Source: an uncultured virus (IMG/VR IMGVR_UViG_3300044643_002701) (lineage: Duplodnaviria; Heunggongvirae; Uroviricota; Caudoviricetes). From it: 20,000 bases of DNA. The stretch's first letter is position 1, and every line of letters begins with the position of its first letter. The stretch lies in the IMG/VR virus record IMGVR_UViG_3300044643_002701; one strand, 5' to 3'. This document shows, one piece after another, positions 1,974-19,994 of the stretch. The position numbers and the translations under genes are program-made. The notes under the pieces were generated by a model. It was not told the origin of the DNA. It did not search any database and saw nothing but the letters and a program-made list of their open reading frames with translations.

Positions 1974-2243
1974 ATGGTCTTAAAAGATATTGTAAGGGAA
2001 GTTTCAGGGTCTATTATGTCCCTATGCTGTTTAATTGGTTCAATGCCTCAGATTTATAAAATCCTTAAAACAAAACACTCAGCTGATCTTGCACCAGCTT
2101 CTATTCTCATTTCCTTTACTTGTGCTGTATCAGGAATGGTCTATATATTGACTGGTACATACTCTTTTTGGTTGTTTATAAATTGTGTTAATGGTATAAT
2201 ATTATCAACAATTTTGTTTTGCTGTTGGTACAAATACAAATAA
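1974..2243 (+). CDS. PQ-loop / SemiSWEET (MtN3)-like three-helix membrane protein
   Basis: 89 aa with three hydrophobic segments; MPQIYKILKTKHSADL matches the PQxxKxxKTKxxxDL pattern. Confidence 0.82.
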   Translation: MVLKDIVREVSGSIMSLCCLIGSMPQIYKILKTKHSADLAPASILISFTCAVSGMVYILTGTYSFWLFINCVNGIILSTILFCCWYKYK

Positions 2244-2251
2244 ATAATAAT

Positions 2252-3073
2252 ATGAATACATATACACTCCCTGAATCTGTTGATCTTGAAGAGATGAAAG
2301 CTTCTTTTAAGCAACATGGATATGCTGTAGCAAGAGGTCTCTTTACAGAAGTTGAAGTAGAGGAAATAAAATCAACCTTTACTAACATTGCTGAAAATGG
2401 TCGGGTGCCGGGTCATTTTGAACCCATTTCCAAGGAAGAATCTGGTGGAGACCCTTTAAAAGAATTTCCAAGAATTATACACCCACATAGATTTAATGAT
2501 GTGGCTCGTAAGCATTTAGTTCATCAGGGTGTACTGACATGTTTAAAACAACTCATGCAGGATGACCTCTTAGCAGCTAATTGTATGTTCTACTATAAAC
2601 CACCAGGCTCCAGAGGACAGGCAATGCATCAAGATAATTTCTATCTTTTAGTTGAACCACAAACATGTGTTGCAGCATGGACTGCTATTGATGATGCAGA
2701 TCCTGACAATGGTGGAATGTATCTGGTAGCAGATACAGCAGAAGAGGAAATCATATGTCCTAAAGAAGCTAACGCTAATGAGTCATTTACAACACACTTT
2801 GTACCAACCCCAAAAGGAAAAAAAGCTGTTCCCTGTATTATGAAAGCTGGTGATACATTATTCTTTAATGGTAGTTCAATTCATGGTTCCGGCCCAAATA
2901 GGTCAAAAGATCGGTTCCGCAGATCATTTATTTGCCATTATGTTCCAAAATCTACACAACGCATAAGCAAACATTATCTACCTCTAATAACGCCCAAAGG
3001 CGAAGAGGTTATGATTGAAGCTACTGATTTTGGTGGGTTATGCGGCGAGACATGGGGTGGTGGACAACATTAA
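2252..3073 (+). CDS. Phytanoyl-CoA dioxygenase (PhyH) family Fe(II)/2-oxoglutarate oxygenase
   Basis: FxxxGYAVxRGLF N-terminus, YYKPPG..HQDNFY, AWTAIDDADPDNGGM, AGDTLFFNGSSIHGSGPNRS..RRS (HxD...H triad plus 2OG-binding Arg). Start moved to ATG 2252 to avoid overlap. Confidence 0.92.
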   Translation: MNTYTLPESVDLEEMKASFKQHGYAVARGLFTEVEVEEIKSTFTNIAENGRVPGHFEPISKEESGGDPLKEFPRIIHPHRFNDVARKHLVHQGVLTCLKQLMQDDLLAANCMFYYKPPGSRGQAMHQDNFYLLVEPQTCVAAWTAIDDADPDNGGMYLVADTAEEEIICPKEANANESFTTHFVPTPKGKKAVPCIMKAGDTLFFNGSSIHGSGPNRSKDRFRRSFICHYVPKSTQRISKHYLPLITPKGEEVMIEATDFGGLCGETWGGGQH

Positions 3074-4956: not shown

Positions 4957-5072
4957 TGAAAGCTTTAACAACTTTTATAATCCTAGTATGCTTTTGTATA
5001 CTTGAAGGTTGGTTTACATCTAACCTTATCAAGGTTGTTGCTTATAACGAAGTTATTCTAAATGACAATTAA
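4953..5072 (+). CDS. 39-aa membrane mini-protein (absent from the ORF track)
   Basis: MMKALTTFIILVCFCILEGWFTSNLIKVVAYNEVILNDN*. ATGA overlap with the previous stop; it fills the gap up to cysC. Confidence 0.55.
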   Translation: MMKALTTFIILVCFCILEGWFTSNLIKVVAYNEVILNDN

Positions 5073-5616
5073 ACCTACAGTAATTTGGTTAACAGGCCTA
5101 TCTGGTTCTGGAAAGACTTCCATTGCCGAGGCCCTTAACAATAAGCTTAAAGCGAATGGAATTAGATCAGGAGTAGCAGATAGTGATACTCTAAGACTTG
5201 ATACTAAAACACTTGTTGGGTTTGATATAGAAGGCAGATGGGTAGCTGTTAATAGAATGATCTATGCTGTTAAGAATATGATCGAATTCCAAAAGGCAGA
5301 AGTTGTTATTGTTGCTAGTATTTCTCCTCTTATAGAGATGAGAAAACAAGCTAGGCATATTCTTACAAATTATTCAAACGCTAATTTTATTGAAGTATTC
5401 GTTGATACGTCTATTGAGATTTGTGAACAAAGAGATGTTAAAGGTCTCTATAAAAAATTTCGAGATGGTCTGATTAAAAATATGTCTGGAATTGATTCTC
5501 CATATGAAGCAGATGCAAATGTAGAAGTTTGGCTTCCATATAAAAATCCATATACTGGAGAATTGACAGTTGACAACGCCGTAAAGATTATTTACAATGC
5601 TATTTATCAATTATGA
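5062..5616 (+). CDS. cysC: Adenylyl-sulfate (APS) kinase
   Basis: VIWLTGLSGSGKTSIA P-loop, DSDTLR, ASISP, FIEVFVDTSIEICEQRDVKGLYKK, GIDSPYE. Confidence 0.92.
   Translation: MTIKPTVIWLTGLSGSGKTSIAEALNNKLKANGIRSGVADSDTLRLDTKTLVGFDIEGRWVAVNRMIYAVKNMIEFQKAEVVIVASISPLIEMRKQARHILTNYSNANFIEVFVDTSIEICEQRDVKGLYKKFRDGLIKNMSGIDSPYEADANVEVWLPYKNPYTGELTVDNAVKIIYNAIYQL
5570..5598 (+). promoter_or_regulatory. sigma70-type promoter inside the 3' end of cysC
   Basis: TTGACA(5570-5575)-17 nt-TACAAT(5593-5598); next ATG at 5613, giving a leader of about 8 nt. Confidence 0.6.
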
Positions 5617-18567: not shown

Positions 18568-18987
18568 ATGGAATATAAATATACTCCAGAAAACATAACC
18601 TCGTTGGATAAAAATGAAGTTTTTGTTTTTGGTAGTAACCTTGCTGGAATTCATGGGGCCGGTGCCGCAAAACTTGCCCATACTAATTTTGGCGCAATAT
18701 ATGGAAAAGGAAATGGCATTCAAGGGCAATCCTACGCCATTCCAACAAAAGATTTTGCAATAGAAACACTTGAGTATACTAATATTGAAAAACATGTTCA
18801 AGAGTTTATTACTTTCGCCAGAGAAAATCCTGAAATAATTTTTCTAGTTACACTAATTGGATGTGGACTGGCTGGGTATAAACCAAAAGATATCGCGCCA
18901 TTATTTTACTCTGTTCCATTGAATGTAATTTTACCAAAAGAATTCGCCAGTGATGCCTACAACAAGAGATTCTTTAATGAAAATTAA
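18568..18987 (+). CDS. Macro-domain-like phage protein (A1S_2505-like family)
   Basis: TPENITSL..EVFVFGSNLAGIHGAGAA..GQSYAIPT..FLVTLIGCGLAGY..IAPLF. Confidence 0.78.
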   Translation: MEYKYTPENITSLDKNEVFVFGSNLAGIHGAGAAKLAHTNFGAIYGKGNGIQGQSYAIPTKDFAIETLEYTNIEKHVQEFITFARENPEIIFLVTLIGCGLAGYKPKDIAPLFYSVPLNVILPKEFASDAYNKRFFNEN

Positions 18988-19663
18988 ATATAAACTAAAA
19001 AATATTGGTGAGAATATTTTTCTCTGCACTATAAGTAATCATTATGACCTTTGCATGACATTTTGTCGTAGCCAAGAGTTTTACGAATCGCCATACAAAG
19101 CAATTCGAGGCAAAAATTTTAAACTTTTAGACTTTATGAGCCTTTACGCAAAGGATAGTGAAGATGGGATTTTCACATACCCGGCGGATTGGGTTGGATT
19201 TAATATACCAAGCAATGTTTTGGAAAATCTTTACTATAATCCTATTCAAGATATTAATGATTATGATCATACTGTAAAAGAAATACTGACCAAAATCGGT
19301 AAAAATCTAAAAACCAAGGATAAGCGTTACTATTTAATTGCCGCTGTGCCCAACGATATTGAAACAATTTCACACGAAATCGCACATGCATTATACAATC
19401 TAAATAAAAACTATAAGAAAGATATGGATGCCTTAACAGACAGCATACCAAAACCAATATACGTTAAACTTTTAGACACTCTTTTCGCGCTCGGATATTG
19501 TAAACAAGTAGTTAAAGATGAAATTCAAGCTTATTTTTCAAATGATTCCTACATGTTTAATGACAATTTAAAACTCAAGGACAGAAAAAAACTTAAGAAA
19601 TTTGAGTTACAGTATAAAAGCGTATATAATAAATACAAAACCAGTCTTAAAATAAAGATTTAA
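18977..19663 (+). CDS. HEXXH zincin-like putative metallopeptidase
   Basis: TISHEIAHALY with a downstream DEIQAY third-ligand candidate; start at ATG 18977 (MKIKYK). Confidence 0.65.
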   Translation: MKIKYKLKNIGENIFLCTISNHYDLCMTFCRSQEFYESPYKAIRGKNFKLLDFMSLYAKDSEDGIFTYPADWVGFNIPSNVLENLYYNPIQDINDYDHTVKEILTKIGKNLKTKDKRYYLIAAVPNDIETISHEIAHALYNLNKNYKKDMDALTDSIPKPIYVKLLDTLFALGYCKQVVKDEIQAYFSNDSYMFNDNLKLKDRKKLKKFELQYKSVYNKYKTSLKIKI

Positions 19664-19746
19664 TGAGCAGTGGAGGAATTGGTAAACTCGGAGGTCTTTG
19701 GAACCTCTGTCGTAAGACGCTGAACGTTCAAGTCGTTCCTGCTCAG
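19664..19746 (+). tRNA. tRNA with anticodon TTG (Gln) and an atypical long variable arm
   Basis: Acceptor TGAGCAG/CTGCTCA plus G73; D arm GAG-GAATTGGTAAA-CTC; anticodon arm GAGGT-CTTTGGA-ACCTC; 14-nt variable region TGTC-GTAA-GACG-CT; T arm GAACG-TTCAAGT-CGTTC; CCA not encoded. Confidence 0.93.
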
Positions 19747-19779
19747 CTTTATATTTTTATTCATATTATGAAAATTAAT

Positions 19780-19793: not shown

Positions 19794-19994
19794 ATGACTA
19801 CCGCTTCAAATAACAGCGTTGAAAAATGGAGTGGTTTTTATAAAACATCAGACGAAGCACAGGCATCTCTTGAAAAACAAGTTAAAACGATGGCTTTAAA
19901 AAAATTAATTATTTCTGCCAAAAAGGAACTCATATTGCAGAATAAAAATCCGATGCTTTTGTATAAATTTACAGTGGTTACCGGCGTTAAATAG
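19794..19994 (+). CDS. Small basic hypothetical protein
   Basis: 66-aa ORF preceded by GTGTA-N9. Confidence 0.55.
   Translation: MTTASNNSVEKWSGFYKTSDEAQASLEKQVKTMALKKLIISAKKELILQNKNPMLLYKFTVVTGVK

What the first reader, a model, noticed from the sequence alone, without database searches (positions are those of the whole stretch)
19664..19746. Class II (long variable arm) tRNA carrying a Gln anticodon: Leu-like body with Gln identity elements
Seen: a fully paired 83-nt cloverleaf with anticodon UUG, U1-A72 and G73, plus a 14-nt variable region forming a 4-bp stem with a GUAA tetraloop and a 3-bp D stem around GAAUUGGUAAA. Known: in bacteria long variable arms are normally confined to tRNA-Leu, Ser, Tyr and Sec; this D arm is Leu-like; U1-A72 is typical of tRNA-Gln and is the bacterial GatCAB determinant; a long arm with G73 is typical of tRNA-Ser. 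Inference: either a chimeric tRNA-Gln on a class II scaffold (possibly evading host anticodon nucleases or matching a phage synthetase), or a tRNA mischarged with Ser/Leu that reads CAA. CAA encodes the conserved Gln of the PhyH HQD motif (2630-2632), which argues against global recoding.
Basis: partly seen in the sequence, partly recalled or inferred. Interest (0 to 1): 0.8.

Follow-up and report, generated by a model that had tools for sequence, protein, structure and literature searches.

The report
Phage glutamine tRNA with extra arm
A lake-water phage carries a real transfer RNA that reads the glutamine codon CAA but is built on the long-armed frame normally kept for leucine tRNAs, and similar long-armed glutamine tRNAs turn up repeatedly in other phages though hardly at all in bacteria.

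Summary
Window 19664-19746(+) is a tRNA (ARAGORN Gln-UUG; Rfam tRNA 50.3 bits against a cut-off of 29). It has U1-A72, G73, a 3-bp D stem, an 11-nt D loop and a 14-nt variable arm (4-bp stem, GUAA loop).

It is not an assembly error. Contigs of three other runs carry it unchanged. Seven contigs hold three alleles whose differences all keep the fold.

The body is Leu-like and the ends are Gln-like:
- My isotype profiles score it Leu 25.3 bits, class-I Gln 9.7, Tyr 8.1, Ser 2.1.
- It has the build of the tRNA-Leu(UAG) of G004, a complete 140.5-kb relative.

In G004 it is the only Gln tRNA, and no synthetase was found there. CAA is the preferred Gln codon and aligns with Gln in relatives.

It is not unique. 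In one viral sample 9 of 90 tRNA-Gln(UUG) were long, and they arose by at least two routes.

Best reading: a working CAA-reading tRNA-Gln on a class II frame, charged by host enzymes. Charging is untested. Eight literature searches found no report.

The parts
19664..19746 (+). tRNA, anticodon UUG (Gln by anticodon), 83 nt up to and including discriminator G73; no encoded CCA
   Evidence: ARAGORN; Rfam RF00005 50.3 bits; identical in contigs of three other runs
19664..19670 (+). acceptor stem, 5' strand (U1, G2, A3 ...); pairs with 19739-19745
   Evidence: bracket output; the A3-U70 to G3-C70 compensatory change in L339/L341
19673..19689 (+). D arm: 3-bp stem GAG/CUC with 11-nt loop GAAUUGGUAAA (Leu-type; G10 present)
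   Evidence: 9 of 11 loop bases shared with G004 tRNA-Leu(UAG)
19691..19707 (+). anticodon arm: 5-bp stem with loop CUUUGGA
19698..19700 (+). anticodon UUG (reads CAA)
19708..19721 (+). 14-nt variable arm: 4-bp stem (one U.G pair) closed by a GUAA tetraloop, then CU unpaired
   Evidence: alleles have GAAA loops and U.G to U-A
19722..19738 (+). T arm: 5-bp stem with loop UUCAAGU
19739..19745 (+). acceptor stem, 3' strand (ends in A72)
19746..19746 (+). discriminator G73
19602..19630 (+). promoter-like site (TTGAGT, 17 nt, TATAAT; 10 of 12) 34 nt upstream of the tRNA, inside the end of the upstream ORF; weak evidence only
   Evidence: 7 sites found against 4.7 +/- 2.0 in shuffles
18950..19663 (+). 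237-aa ORF of no known family; its stop codon abuts the first base of the tRNA
   Evidence: its homologue lies downstream of the tRNA in G004

Best explanation
This is a working phage tRNA that reads the glutamine codon CAA. It is built on a leucine-type class II frame: a long variable arm, a 3-bp D stem and an 11-nt D loop. Its acceptor end and anticodon have been changed to the glutamine identity set.

Shown:
- it is a conserved tRNA gene;
- the body is Leu-like and the ends are Gln-like;
- it is the sole Gln tRNA of a complete related phage;
- CAA is the phage's main Gln codon and behaves as Gln.

Inferred:
- G73 in place of A73 removes leucylation, and A72 in place of C72 disfavours serylation.
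- U1-A72, G2-C71, G10, U35, G36 and G73 let the host's GlnRS charge it with Gln. Less likely, a non-discriminating GluRS plus amidotransferase does so.
- The frame came from a tRNA-Leu(UAG)-type gene by duplication, one anticodon change (A35 to U) and remodelling of the acceptor stem. This may have happened in this lineage or in an older long-arm Gln lineage.
- The arm is kept because the Leu-type core needs it. Whether it also brings an advantage is open.
- RNase P and the host CCA-adding enzyme mature the transcript, since no CCA is encoded.
For: Real and conserved:
- ARAGORN and Rfam both call it.
- Contigs of runs X4, X10 and X13 cover 19664-19746 with no listed difference or indel.
- Seven contigs hold three alleles. 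They differ at five sites. Two sites form one compensatory pair (A3-U70 to G3-C70). The others are A-U to G.U, U.G to U-A, and GUAA to GAAA in the loop.
- Against G004 the tRNA block is 94% identical, while the flanks are 68-78% identical.

Leu-like body:
- My profiles, built from phage tRNAs, score it Leu 25.3 bits, class-I Gln 9.7, Tyr 8.1, Ser 2.1.
- It aligns with G004's own tRNA-Leu(UAG) over columns 7-77 with a single 1-nt gap. It shares A15, the U that ends the variable region, G18G19, G37, and a variable arm of the same design.
- Body identity to that Leu is 47 of 68. The acceptor strands differ.

Gln-like ends:
- The window allele has 7 of the 10 elements of the bacterial Gln set listed in PMC9976931 (passages read): G73, U1-A72, G2-C71, G10, U34, U35, G36. 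The G004 allele adds G3-C70.
- Among 29 unique long-arm Gln tRNAs from viral contigs, 28 have U:A or A:U at 1:72, and 19 have G73.
- This matches the 84 class-I Gln tRNAs, none of which has G:C at 1:72. It differs from long Leu (A73 in 21 of 23), Ser (G:C in 16 of 19) and Tyr (G:C in 13 of 14).
- The same review reports that an amber tRNA-Ser, a class II tRNA, switched from Ser to Gln when pairs 1-72 and 3-70 were changed. GlnRS can therefore accept a long arm.

Role:
- G004 (140,531 bp, terminal repeats, rated complete) has 19 tRNAs. This one is its only Gln tRNA.
- CAA makes up 930 of 1468 Gln codons in G004 and 130 of 186 in the window.
- At 41 window CAA sites aligned to relatives (586 cells), Gln is 52.6%, and CAG is the commonest non-CAA codon. 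Ser is 8.5%. Leu is not among the eight commonest residues, each at 1.5% or more. CAG sites give Gln 54.1%.
- No synthetase or amidotransferase was found in 167 G004 ORFs or 17 window ORFs.
Against: - No charging, expression or modification data exist. The one RNA run laid covers only 19868-19983, not the tRNA.
- G37 and A38 replace the A37 and U38 of the E. coli Gln set, and the window allele has A3-U70 rather than G3-C70.
- The tRNA also carries 5 of the 7 listed bacterial Ser elements: G73, G2-C71, G4-C69, G30-C40 and a large variable region.
- The host is unknown. If it lacks GlnRS, the Leu-type D arm with an extra D-loop base and the long arm fit poorly with what the review reports for GluRS and the amidotransferase.
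- The codon test cannot detect partial, ambiguous decoding, and most of the relatives used in it lack this tRNA.
- With the acceptor stem removed, its nearest neighbours are other long-arm Gln tRNAs (70-74%) rather than G004's Leu (69%). That sample shares bases by construction of the search pattern. The timing and direction of the Leu-to-Gln step are therefore inferred.
- My isotype profiles are home-made from 12-24 sequences each. They are not tRNAscan-SE models.
Confidence: 0.65

Rival explanations
1. The tRNA is charged wholly or partly with serine by the host SerRS, which ignores the anticodon. CAA would then be read ambiguously as Ser and Gln during infection.
For: It has G73, G2-C71, R4-Y69, G30-C40 and a large variable region. 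That is 5 of the 7 bacterial Ser elements listed in PMC9976931. The window allele also has A3-U70. The codon test cannot see partial misreading.
Against: - It has A72 rather than C72, and A11-U24 rather than C11-G24.
- The review says G1-C72 is absolutely conserved in most bacterial tRNA-Ser. Long phage tRNA-Ser here have G:C at 1:72 in 16 of 19.
- Its variable region is 14 nt. In 9 of 10 tRNA-Ser of related phages it is 16-19 nt.
- The Ser profile scores it 2.1 bits against 25.3 for Leu.
- The G004 allele moves 3-70 to the Gln state.
- It is the only Gln tRNA of a phage that uses CAA for 63% of its Gln codons.
- Ser at CAA sites (8.5%) is about the same as at CAG sites (6.9%).
Confidence: 0.1
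2. It is still a leucine acceptor whose anticodon mutated from UAG to UUG. It would insert Leu at CAA, or be a decaying Leu gene copy.
For: Leu-like body. LeuRS of E. coli does not read the anticodon or the arm (PMC9976931). A Leu-bodied tRNA with A73 and a UUG anticodon does exist in a Vibrio MAG contig (L304).
Against: - A73, the crucial Leu determinant, is replaced by G73. The review lists G73 as an antideterminant for LeuRS.
- Long phage tRNA-Leu here have A73 in 21 of 23.
- Leu is not among the eight commonest residues aligned with CAA sites, each of which is at 1.5% or more.
- The gene is conserved with structure-keeping changes, so it is not decaying.
Confidence: 0.03
3. It does not serve translation mainly. 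It could be a decoy or sponge for a host tRNA-targeting defence enzyme, a regulatory tRNA-like RNA, or an attachment site.
For: Unusual build. Some phage contigs carry a class-I and a long-arm Gln(UUG) side by side (L054, L110), which suggests the two are not redundant. No expression data exist.
Against: - All the elements of a translating tRNA that I checked are intact: G18G19, the UUC-type T loop, U33, the 7/5 stems and the Gln-type acceptor end.
- It sits at the head of a tRNA array.
- It is the sole Gln tRNA in G004.
- No integrase reached Pfam's cut-off in G004. The only related hit is a weak integrase-core match (E 9.5e-4, 19.7 bits against a cut-off of 22) in a 77-aa ORF. G004 also has terminal repeats.
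Confidence: 0.1
4. It is an assembly artefact or a chance cloverleaf.
For: Single-sequence folding does not return the cloverleaf, and z is only -2.22. Per-hairpin shuffles of the variable regions are not significant (median P 0.45).
Against: - Rfam E-value is 5.2e-10.
- The sequence is identical in contigs of three other runs and in the window plus 3 of the 6 other contigs examined.
- One allele carries a compensatory change.
- 19 DNA runs hold at least half of the stretch's sampled words.
Confidence: 0.01

Closest known systems
Canonical bacterial and phage tRNA-Gln(UUG), class I
   Same: Anticodon UUG, U1-A72, G2-C71, G73, G10, and a 7/5 acceptor/T build. The 84 class-I phage Gln tRNAs sampled here show the same weak 1:72 pair and mostly G73.
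   Different: - A 14-nt stem-loop variable arm instead of 4-5 nt.
- A Leu-type D arm with an 11-nt loop.
- G37 and A38 instead of A37 and U38.
- A3-U70 in the window allele.
- It scores 9.7 bits on my class-I Gln profile against 25.3 on the Leu profile.
Bacterial-type class II tRNA-Leu, e.g. the tRNA-Leu(UAG) of the related phage G004
   Same: Same segment lengths apart from one base in the variable arm. It shares UG at positions 8-9, the 3-bp D stem, a D loop that differs at 2 of 11 bases, A15 with the U that ends the variable region, G37, and a variable arm closed by a GNRA loop.
   Different: G73 instead of A73, U1-A72, a different acceptor stem, and anticodon UUG instead of UAG.
Engineered class II tRNAs that accept glutamine (amber tRNA-Ser with pairs 1-72 and 3-70 changed; PMC9976931, passage read)
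   Same: A long-armed tRNA becomes a Gln acceptor through the first and third acceptor pairs together with a central U35.
   Different: Those are laboratory amber suppressors on a Ser frame. This is a natural sense-codon tRNA on a Leu frame, and its charging is untested.
Alloacceptor tRNA remolding in mitochondrial genomes (PMC4783518, abstract start seen in the listing)
   Same: Duplication of a tRNA gene plus an anticodon change gives a tRNA that is closer to another acceptor family than to its own.
   Different: Here it crosses the class II to class I divide, it occurs in phages, and the ancestral Leu gene is retained in G004.
Class II tRNAs with unexpected anticodons: nematode nev-tRNAs (recalled, not checked here) and bacterial allo-tRNAs (named in PMC7609411, passages read)
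   Same: A long variable arm combined with an anticodon of a class I amino acid.
   Different: As I recall, those keep Leu or Ser acceptor identity and mistranslate or recode. Allo-tRNAs also have 8/4 or 9/3 stems. This tRNA has a standard 7/5 build and an acceptor end that matches its anticodon.

Membership tests
tRNA (Rfam RF00005) | Cloverleaf scoring above the curated gathering score | tested here: met
   50.3 bits against 29, model positions 1-71 of 71; ARAGORN also calls it
tRNA-Gln (bacterial identity set, PMC9976931 Table 1) | Anticodon U34, U35, G36 | tested here: met
   UUG at 19698-19700
tRNA-Gln (bacterial identity set) | U1-A72, G2-C71, G73, G10 | tested here: met
   Read from the sequence. 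28 of 29 long-arm viral Gln tRNAs have an A/U pair at 1:72.
tRNA-Gln (bacterial identity set) | G3-C70 | tested here: not met
   The window allele has A3-U70. The alleles in L339 and L341 have G3-C70.
tRNA-Gln (bacterial identity set) | A37, U38 | tested here: not met
   The loop CUUUGGA gives G37 and A38.
tRNA-Gln | Class I build (variable region of 4-5 nt) | tested here: not met
   The variable region is 14 nt with a stem-loop.
tRNA-Gln | Charged with glutamine | not testable with these tools
   No biochemical or tRNA-seq data. The RNA run does not cover the gene.
tRNA-Leu (bacterial) | Discriminator A73 | tested here: not met
   G73. 21 of 23 long phage Leu tRNAs have A73.
tRNA-Leu (bacterial) | Tertiary elements A15-U48, G18G19, extra D-loop base, large variable region | tested here: met
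   D loop GAAUUGGUAAA, and a U ends the variable region. The Leu profile scores 25.3 bits. Standard-position numbering is my own reading.
tRNA-Leu | Leu anticodon | tested here: not met
   UUG reads CAA
tRNA-Ser (bacterial) | C72 (G1-C72) and C11-G24 | tested here: not met
   U1-A72 and A11-U24
tRNA-Ser (bacterial) | G73, G2-C71, R4-Y69, G30-C40, large variable region | tested here: met
   All are present. However, the arm is 14 nt against 16-19 nt in 9 of 10 related-phage Ser tRNAs, and the Ser profile scores 2.1 bits.
allo-tRNA / tRNA-Sec-like | 8/4 or 9/3 acceptor/T stems | tested here: not met
   Standard 7/5 stems

The most novel reading that the evidence does not exclude
The long variable arm on phage tRNA-Gln is not a leftover. 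It is a trait selected again and again, and the same may hold for the long-armed Pro, Thr, Ile, Met and Gly tRNAs seen in related phages.

It was gained by at least two independent routes: conversion of a Leu frame, and insertion of a hairpin into an ordinary tRNA-Gln. On this reading it gives phage tRNAs a shape that host tRNA-cutting or tRNA-modifying defences, or the phage's own attack on host tRNAs, do not recognise, while host synthetases still charge them.

Phages that carry an ordinary and a long-armed Gln(UUG) side by side would then be keeping a resistant spare.
Probability: 0.2. Interest if true: 0.85.

Novelty: new variant of a known kind. Interest (0 to 1): 0.6.

Why it matters
Textbooks and the identity review read here (PMC9976931) reserve the long variable arm for a few tRNA families such as Leu, Ser and Tyr.

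A natural, conserved tRNA with a glutamine anticodon, a glutamine-type acceptor end and a Leu-type long-armed body shows that the class boundary can be crossed in nature. The sampling here suggests phages cross it often:
- 9 of 90 tRNA-Gln(UUG) in one viral sample were long;
- 12 of 112 class-I-isotype tRNAs in related phages have long variable regions;
- 7 of 13 tRNA-Leu in those phages have short variable loops.

This gives three things:
- a natural test case for how GlnRS, or the GluRS plus amidotransferase route, tolerates a long arm;
- a likely example of tRNA identity switching outside organelles;
- a caution for annotation pipelines that assign isotype from body shape.

If the arm proves to be protective, it would add a new kind of phage counter-defence.

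Tried and rejected
- Own genome: not held. I worked from the nearest records G001-G004 instead.
- Cultured phages (INPHARED), six queries:
  - The window tRNA, L073 and L018 gave no match. The 301-nt region gave none either.
  - For L062, every annotated tRNA under the listed hits was a tRNA-Leu, over positions 6-78 at most; some rows had other or no annotation.
  - L080 hit class-I tRNA-Gln with a gap.
  - L054 hit tRNA-Leu or half of a tRNA-Gln.
  - So no full-length long-arm Gln relative appeared among the listed hits of these six queries. That is not proof of absence.
- Host: the DnaE-type polymerase of G004 is only 25% identical to any cultured phage's. The GDP-mannose dehydratase search returned no organism names. 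The 425-aa structural protein is 63-66% identical to that of T4-like cyanophages, but G004's replication genes are of another kind. That protein therefore says little about the host. The host stays unknown.
- RNA evidence: the only RNA run holding part of the stretch (X20) covers 19868-19983 and not the tRNA. No conclusion on expression follows.
- Variable hairpins against shuffles of the same bases: not significant singly (median P 0.45).
- RNAalifold on 19 long-arm Gln tRNAs: it recovers the acceptor, anticodon and T stems, with 16 of 17 pairs showing double changes. It does not call the D or variable stems because MAFFT puts them out of register. I therefore tabulated the variable hairpins by hand for 19 tRNAs selected out of 32, which is a biased subset.
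- Amber-suppressor link: the CUA scan gave 114 loci but only 2 CUA tRNAs. That is too few to say anything.
- Literature: eight searches found no report of a long-armed tRNA-Gln or of phage tRNA remolding. The 2020 review of non-canonical tRNAs does not contain the word phage. The library lacks most subscription journals.

Full report
**1. What is there**

ARAGORN finds a single tRNA in the window, Gln (ttg), at 19664-19747(+). Rfam's tRNA model matches 19664-19746 from its first to its last position at 50.3 bits (cut-off 29, E 5.2e-10) in the permissive run. The default-filter run over the whole window returned nothing. The same filter loss recurs for the near-identical L114.

Reading the sequence with ARAGORN's bracket output gives:
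- a 7-bp acceptor stem beginning U1-A72, G2-C71, A3-U70;
- discriminator G;
- a 3-bp D stem around GAAUUGGUAAA;
- a 5-bp anticodon stem with loop CUUUGGA;
- a 14-nt variable region with a 4-bp stem (one U.G pair) and a GUAA loop;
- a normal T arm;
- no encoded CCA.

So is the CAA codon in the MHQD motif of the PhyH gene. Single-sequence folding does not return the cloverleaf (z -2.22).

**2. Setting**

The window is phage DNA. It carries virion structural proteins, an HNH endonuclease, and PhyH, APS kinase and phosphoesterase genes, at about 35% G+C.

The stretch around the tRNA is held by 19 DNA runs of lake or fresh water, each with at least half of its sampled words. The runs listed as holding any part of it (one RNA run included) come from 19 studies, and three runs are flagged as possible sources.

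The nearest record, G001, carries the same tRNA at the head of an array: Val-UAC, Ala-UGC, Thr-UGU, Ile-GAU, Gly-UCC, Ser-UGA.

A second relative, G004, is a 140,531-bp genome with terminal repeats, rated complete. It is syntenic with the window at 68-90% nucleotide identity in blocks. Its replication genes (DnaE-type polymerase, DnaB, primase, RNR) have no close cultured relative. The host is unknown.

**3. Not an artefact, and under selection**

Contigs from runs X4, X10 and X13 cover the whole tRNA with no listed difference or indel. They do differ from the window in the flanks.

A pattern specific for this tRNA finds five viral contigs and one metagenome contig. With the window, that makes seven copies in three alleles:
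- four copies are identical;
- L343 has GUAA to GAAA, and U.G to U-A in the variable stem;
- L339 and L341 have A3-U70 to G3-C70 (both sides changed), A28-U42 to G.U, and GUAA to GAAA.

No difference breaks a pair. Against G004 the tRNA block is 94% identical, while the neighbouring blocks are 68-78% identical. The tRNA also lies on the other side of the neighbouring ORF in G004, so it behaves as a discrete module.

**4. Body and ends**

The window tRNA scores 25.3 bits on Leu, 9.7 on class-I Gln, 8.1 on Tyr and 2.1 on Ser.

It aligns with G004's own tRNA-Leu(UAG) over columns 7-77 with one 1-nt gap. The two share:
- UG at positions 8-9;
- the 3-bp D stem;
- a D loop that differs at 2 of 11 bases;
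- G37;
- the U that ends the variable region;
- a variable arm of the same design.

The seven acceptor pairs and the discriminator are different. UAG and UUG differ by one base.

The identity tables and text of Giege and Eriani 2023 (PMC9976931; passages read) give these bacterial sets:
- Gln: G73, U1-A72, G2-C71, G3-C70, G10, U34, U35, G36, A37, U38.
- Leu: A73 as the crucial element, plus A15-U48, G18G19 and A20a.
- Ser: G73, C72, G2-C71, R4-Y69, C11-G24, a large variable region and G30-C40.
- G73 is listed as an antideterminant for LeuRS and TyrRS.

The window allele has 7 of the 10 Gln elements, and the G004 allele has 8. It lacks the one crucial Leu base. It has 5 of the 7 Ser elements but lacks C72 and C11-G24.

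The same review reports that an amber tRNA-Ser became a glutamine acceptor when pairs 1-72 and 3-70 were changed. A long arm therefore does not bar GlnRS.

**5. What CAA means here**

CAA makes up 130 of 186 Gln codons in the window's ORFs and 930 of 1468 in G004.

I aligned window proteins to 79 related loci by tblastn (114 HSPs, 79 of them from one structural protein). HSPs above 90% identity and duplicate subject sequences were dropped. At 41 CAA sites (586 cells):
- the aligned residue is Gln in 52.6% (CAA 233, CAG 75);
- Ala is 18.3% and Ser 8.5%;
- Leu is not among the eight commonest residues, each of which is at 1.5% or more.

At 22 CAG sites (447 cells), Gln is 54.1% and Ser 6.9%. CAA is therefore an ordinary Gln codon. 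The test cannot exclude a minor share of misreading.

In G004 this tRNA is the only Gln tRNA among 19. Pfam scans of 167 G004 ORFs (150 at E 1e-5, 17 at E 1e-3) and 17 window ORFs found no synthetase, amidotransferase or tRNA-modifying enzyme.

**6. It is one of many**

ARAGORN found 37 Gln(ttg) and 2 Gln(ctg) tRNAs of 80 nt or more in them. Fifty loci had no tRNA. Rfam's model recovers the long Gln tRNA above its cut-off in 18 of 20 loci tested.

Among 29 unique viral examples, 1:72 is U:A in 24, A:U in 4 and U:G in 1. N73 is G in 19, U in 6 and A in 4. Controls from the same data:

| tRNA group | n | 1:72 | N73 |
|---|---|---|---|
| class-I Gln | 84 | no G:C | G in 45 |
| long Leu | 23 | G:C in 12 | A in 21 |
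| long Ser | 19 | G:C in 16 | G in 13 |
| Tyr | 14 | G:C in 13 | A in 13 |

The long-arm tRNAs therefore carry the Gln acceptor signature.

In 19 tRNAs that I selected out of 32 for having a tetraloop hairpin, the closing pair is C-G in 16. The loops are GAAA in 9, GUAA in 2 and GCAA in 2. The second pair takes five forms: UA 4, CG 3, GC 5, AU 5, UG 2.

Of these, 81 were short and 9 long, with a clear gap between 76 and 81 nt. Four of the 9 are a different oddity with an irregular anticodon arm, which leaves 5 of 90 with a stem-loop arm.

In bacterial and archaeal genome contigs the long-spacer pattern also hit its limit at 120 loci. Only 6 loci held any tRNA, and 2 held a long Gln(ttg). One is in a tRNA array on a Treponema MAG contig. 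The other is a Leu-like tRNA with A73 in a Vibrio MAG. Taking the loci without any tRNA (50 viral, 114 genomic) as a rough yardstick for the bases scanned, long-arm Gln is tens of times denser in viral DNA. The two patterns differ by one letter and the collections differ in composition, so this is only an order of magnitude.

**7. Two routes to the same build**

By my profiles, some long-arm Gln tRNAs have Leu-like bodies: the window tRNA, the L062 group and L059. The L062 type matches cultured-phage tRNA-Leu over positions 6-78 at most.

Others have Gln-like bodies (L076, L080/L120, L073, L018, L100). L080 equals the class-I tRNA-Gln of Klebsiella phage VLCpiP4a plus a 15-nt hairpin inserted in the variable loop.

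With the acceptor stem removed, the window tRNA's nearest neighbours are other long-arm Gln tRNAs (70-74%) and then G004's Leu(UAG) (69%). That sample shares bases by construction of the pattern. I therefore cannot tell a recent switch from an older long-arm Gln lineage.

**8. Wider pattern in related phages**

Among 145 unique tRNAs from phages related by the structural protein, plus G004:
- 12 of 112 class-I-isotype tRNAs have variable regions of 10 nt or more (Thr, Pro, Met, Ile-UAU, Gly, Gln);
- 7 of 13 tRNA-Leu have a 5-nt loop.

The class I/II rule is loose in these phage tRNA sets.

**9. Reading**

The best-supported account is a functional CAA-reading tRNA-Gln on a Leu-type class II frame (confidence 0.65). 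Charging by a host GlnRS is inferred from the identity elements and from the tRNA-Ser to Gln precedent.

If the host lacks GlnRS, the fit is worse. The review reports that some GluRS enzymes charge only tRNAs with an augmented D stem and no nucleotide 47. It also reports that an extra D-loop base acts against the amidotransferase.

Rivals:
- serylation, whole or partial: 0.10;
- a non-translational role: 0.10;
- leucylation: 0.03;
- artefact: 0.01.

Why the arm is kept is open. It may be a structural legacy of the Leu core, or it may bring a benefit. The independent hairpin insertion into ordinary tRNA-Gln, and contigs that carry a class-I and a long-arm Gln(UUG) side by side, hint at a benefit. 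I give that 0.2.

**10. Novelty**

Eight full-text searches found no description of a long-armed tRNA-Gln or of tRNA remolding in phages. The 2020 review of non-canonical tRNAs does not mention phages. The 2023 survey of structured RNAs in viruses mentions only unspecified tRNA-like candidates. The library lacks most subscription journals, so earlier notice cannot be excluded. I rate this a new variant of a known kind.

Noticed in passing
L131-L209 and G004 (L330-L337): In phages related by the 425-aa structural protein, 12 of 112 unique class-I-isotype tRNAs have variable regions of 10 nt or more (Thr-UGU, Pro-UGG, Met-CAU, Ile-UAU, Gly-UCC, Gln-UUG). Also, 7 of 13 tRNA-Leu have only a 5-nt variable loop. 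G004 itself has a 95-nt Ile(UAU) and a 78-nt Leu(UAA).
   Followed up: partly
L054 51-223; L110 51-221; L018 49-219; L035 39-221; L049 135-315: Some phage contigs carry a class-I and a long-arm Gln(UUG) side by side (L054, L110). Others carry a class-I Gln(CUG) beside a long-arm Gln(UUG) (L018, L035), or tandem long-arm Gln UUG and CUG (L049).
   Followed up: no
L508 (viral contig), around 101-165: A 92-nt tRNA with a CUA (amber) anticodon, A1:U72, G73 and a long variable arm. It may be a Gln-type suppressor of the same build. L506 is a Leu-like CUA tRNA with A73.
   Followed up: no
L304 220-304 (Vibrio MAG contig): A Leu-bodied tRNA with G1:C72, A73, CCA and anticodon UUG, with an imperfect anticodon stem, next to a class-I Gln(UUG). 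By the identity rules it would be a Leu acceptor reading CAA, or a decaying gene.
   Followed up: no
L014, L029, L038, L048, L356, L393, L414, L434: A recurrent 82-83-nt 'Gln(ttg)' call with an irregular anticodon arm and an unstructured 11-12-nt variable region. This is a different non-canonical tRNA type.
   Followed up: no
window 18950-19747 against G004 125165-126000: Gene order differs. The 237-aa ORF lies upstream of the tRNA in the window, but its homologue lies downstream of the tRNA in G004. Homology around the tRNA starts only 11 nt before it.
   Followed up: partly
window 5062-5616, 2219-3073, 972-1595: Auxiliary-metabolism-like genes: APS kinase (PF01583, E 2e-43), PhyH dioxygenase (E 1e-29) and a metallophosphoesterase.
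   Followed up: no
window 19664-19746; L114; L043: Rfam's default-filter (gathering) run misses these long-arm tRNAs, although the full score is well above the cut-off. Annotation pipelines that use the fast filters may undercount them.
   Followed up: partly
L464-L577: The CUA-pattern scan mostly hit one recurrent stretch: most listed loci are 262 bases long, and only 8 tRNAs were found in the 114 loci. This looks like a conserved non-tRNA sequence in many viral contigs.
   Followed up: no
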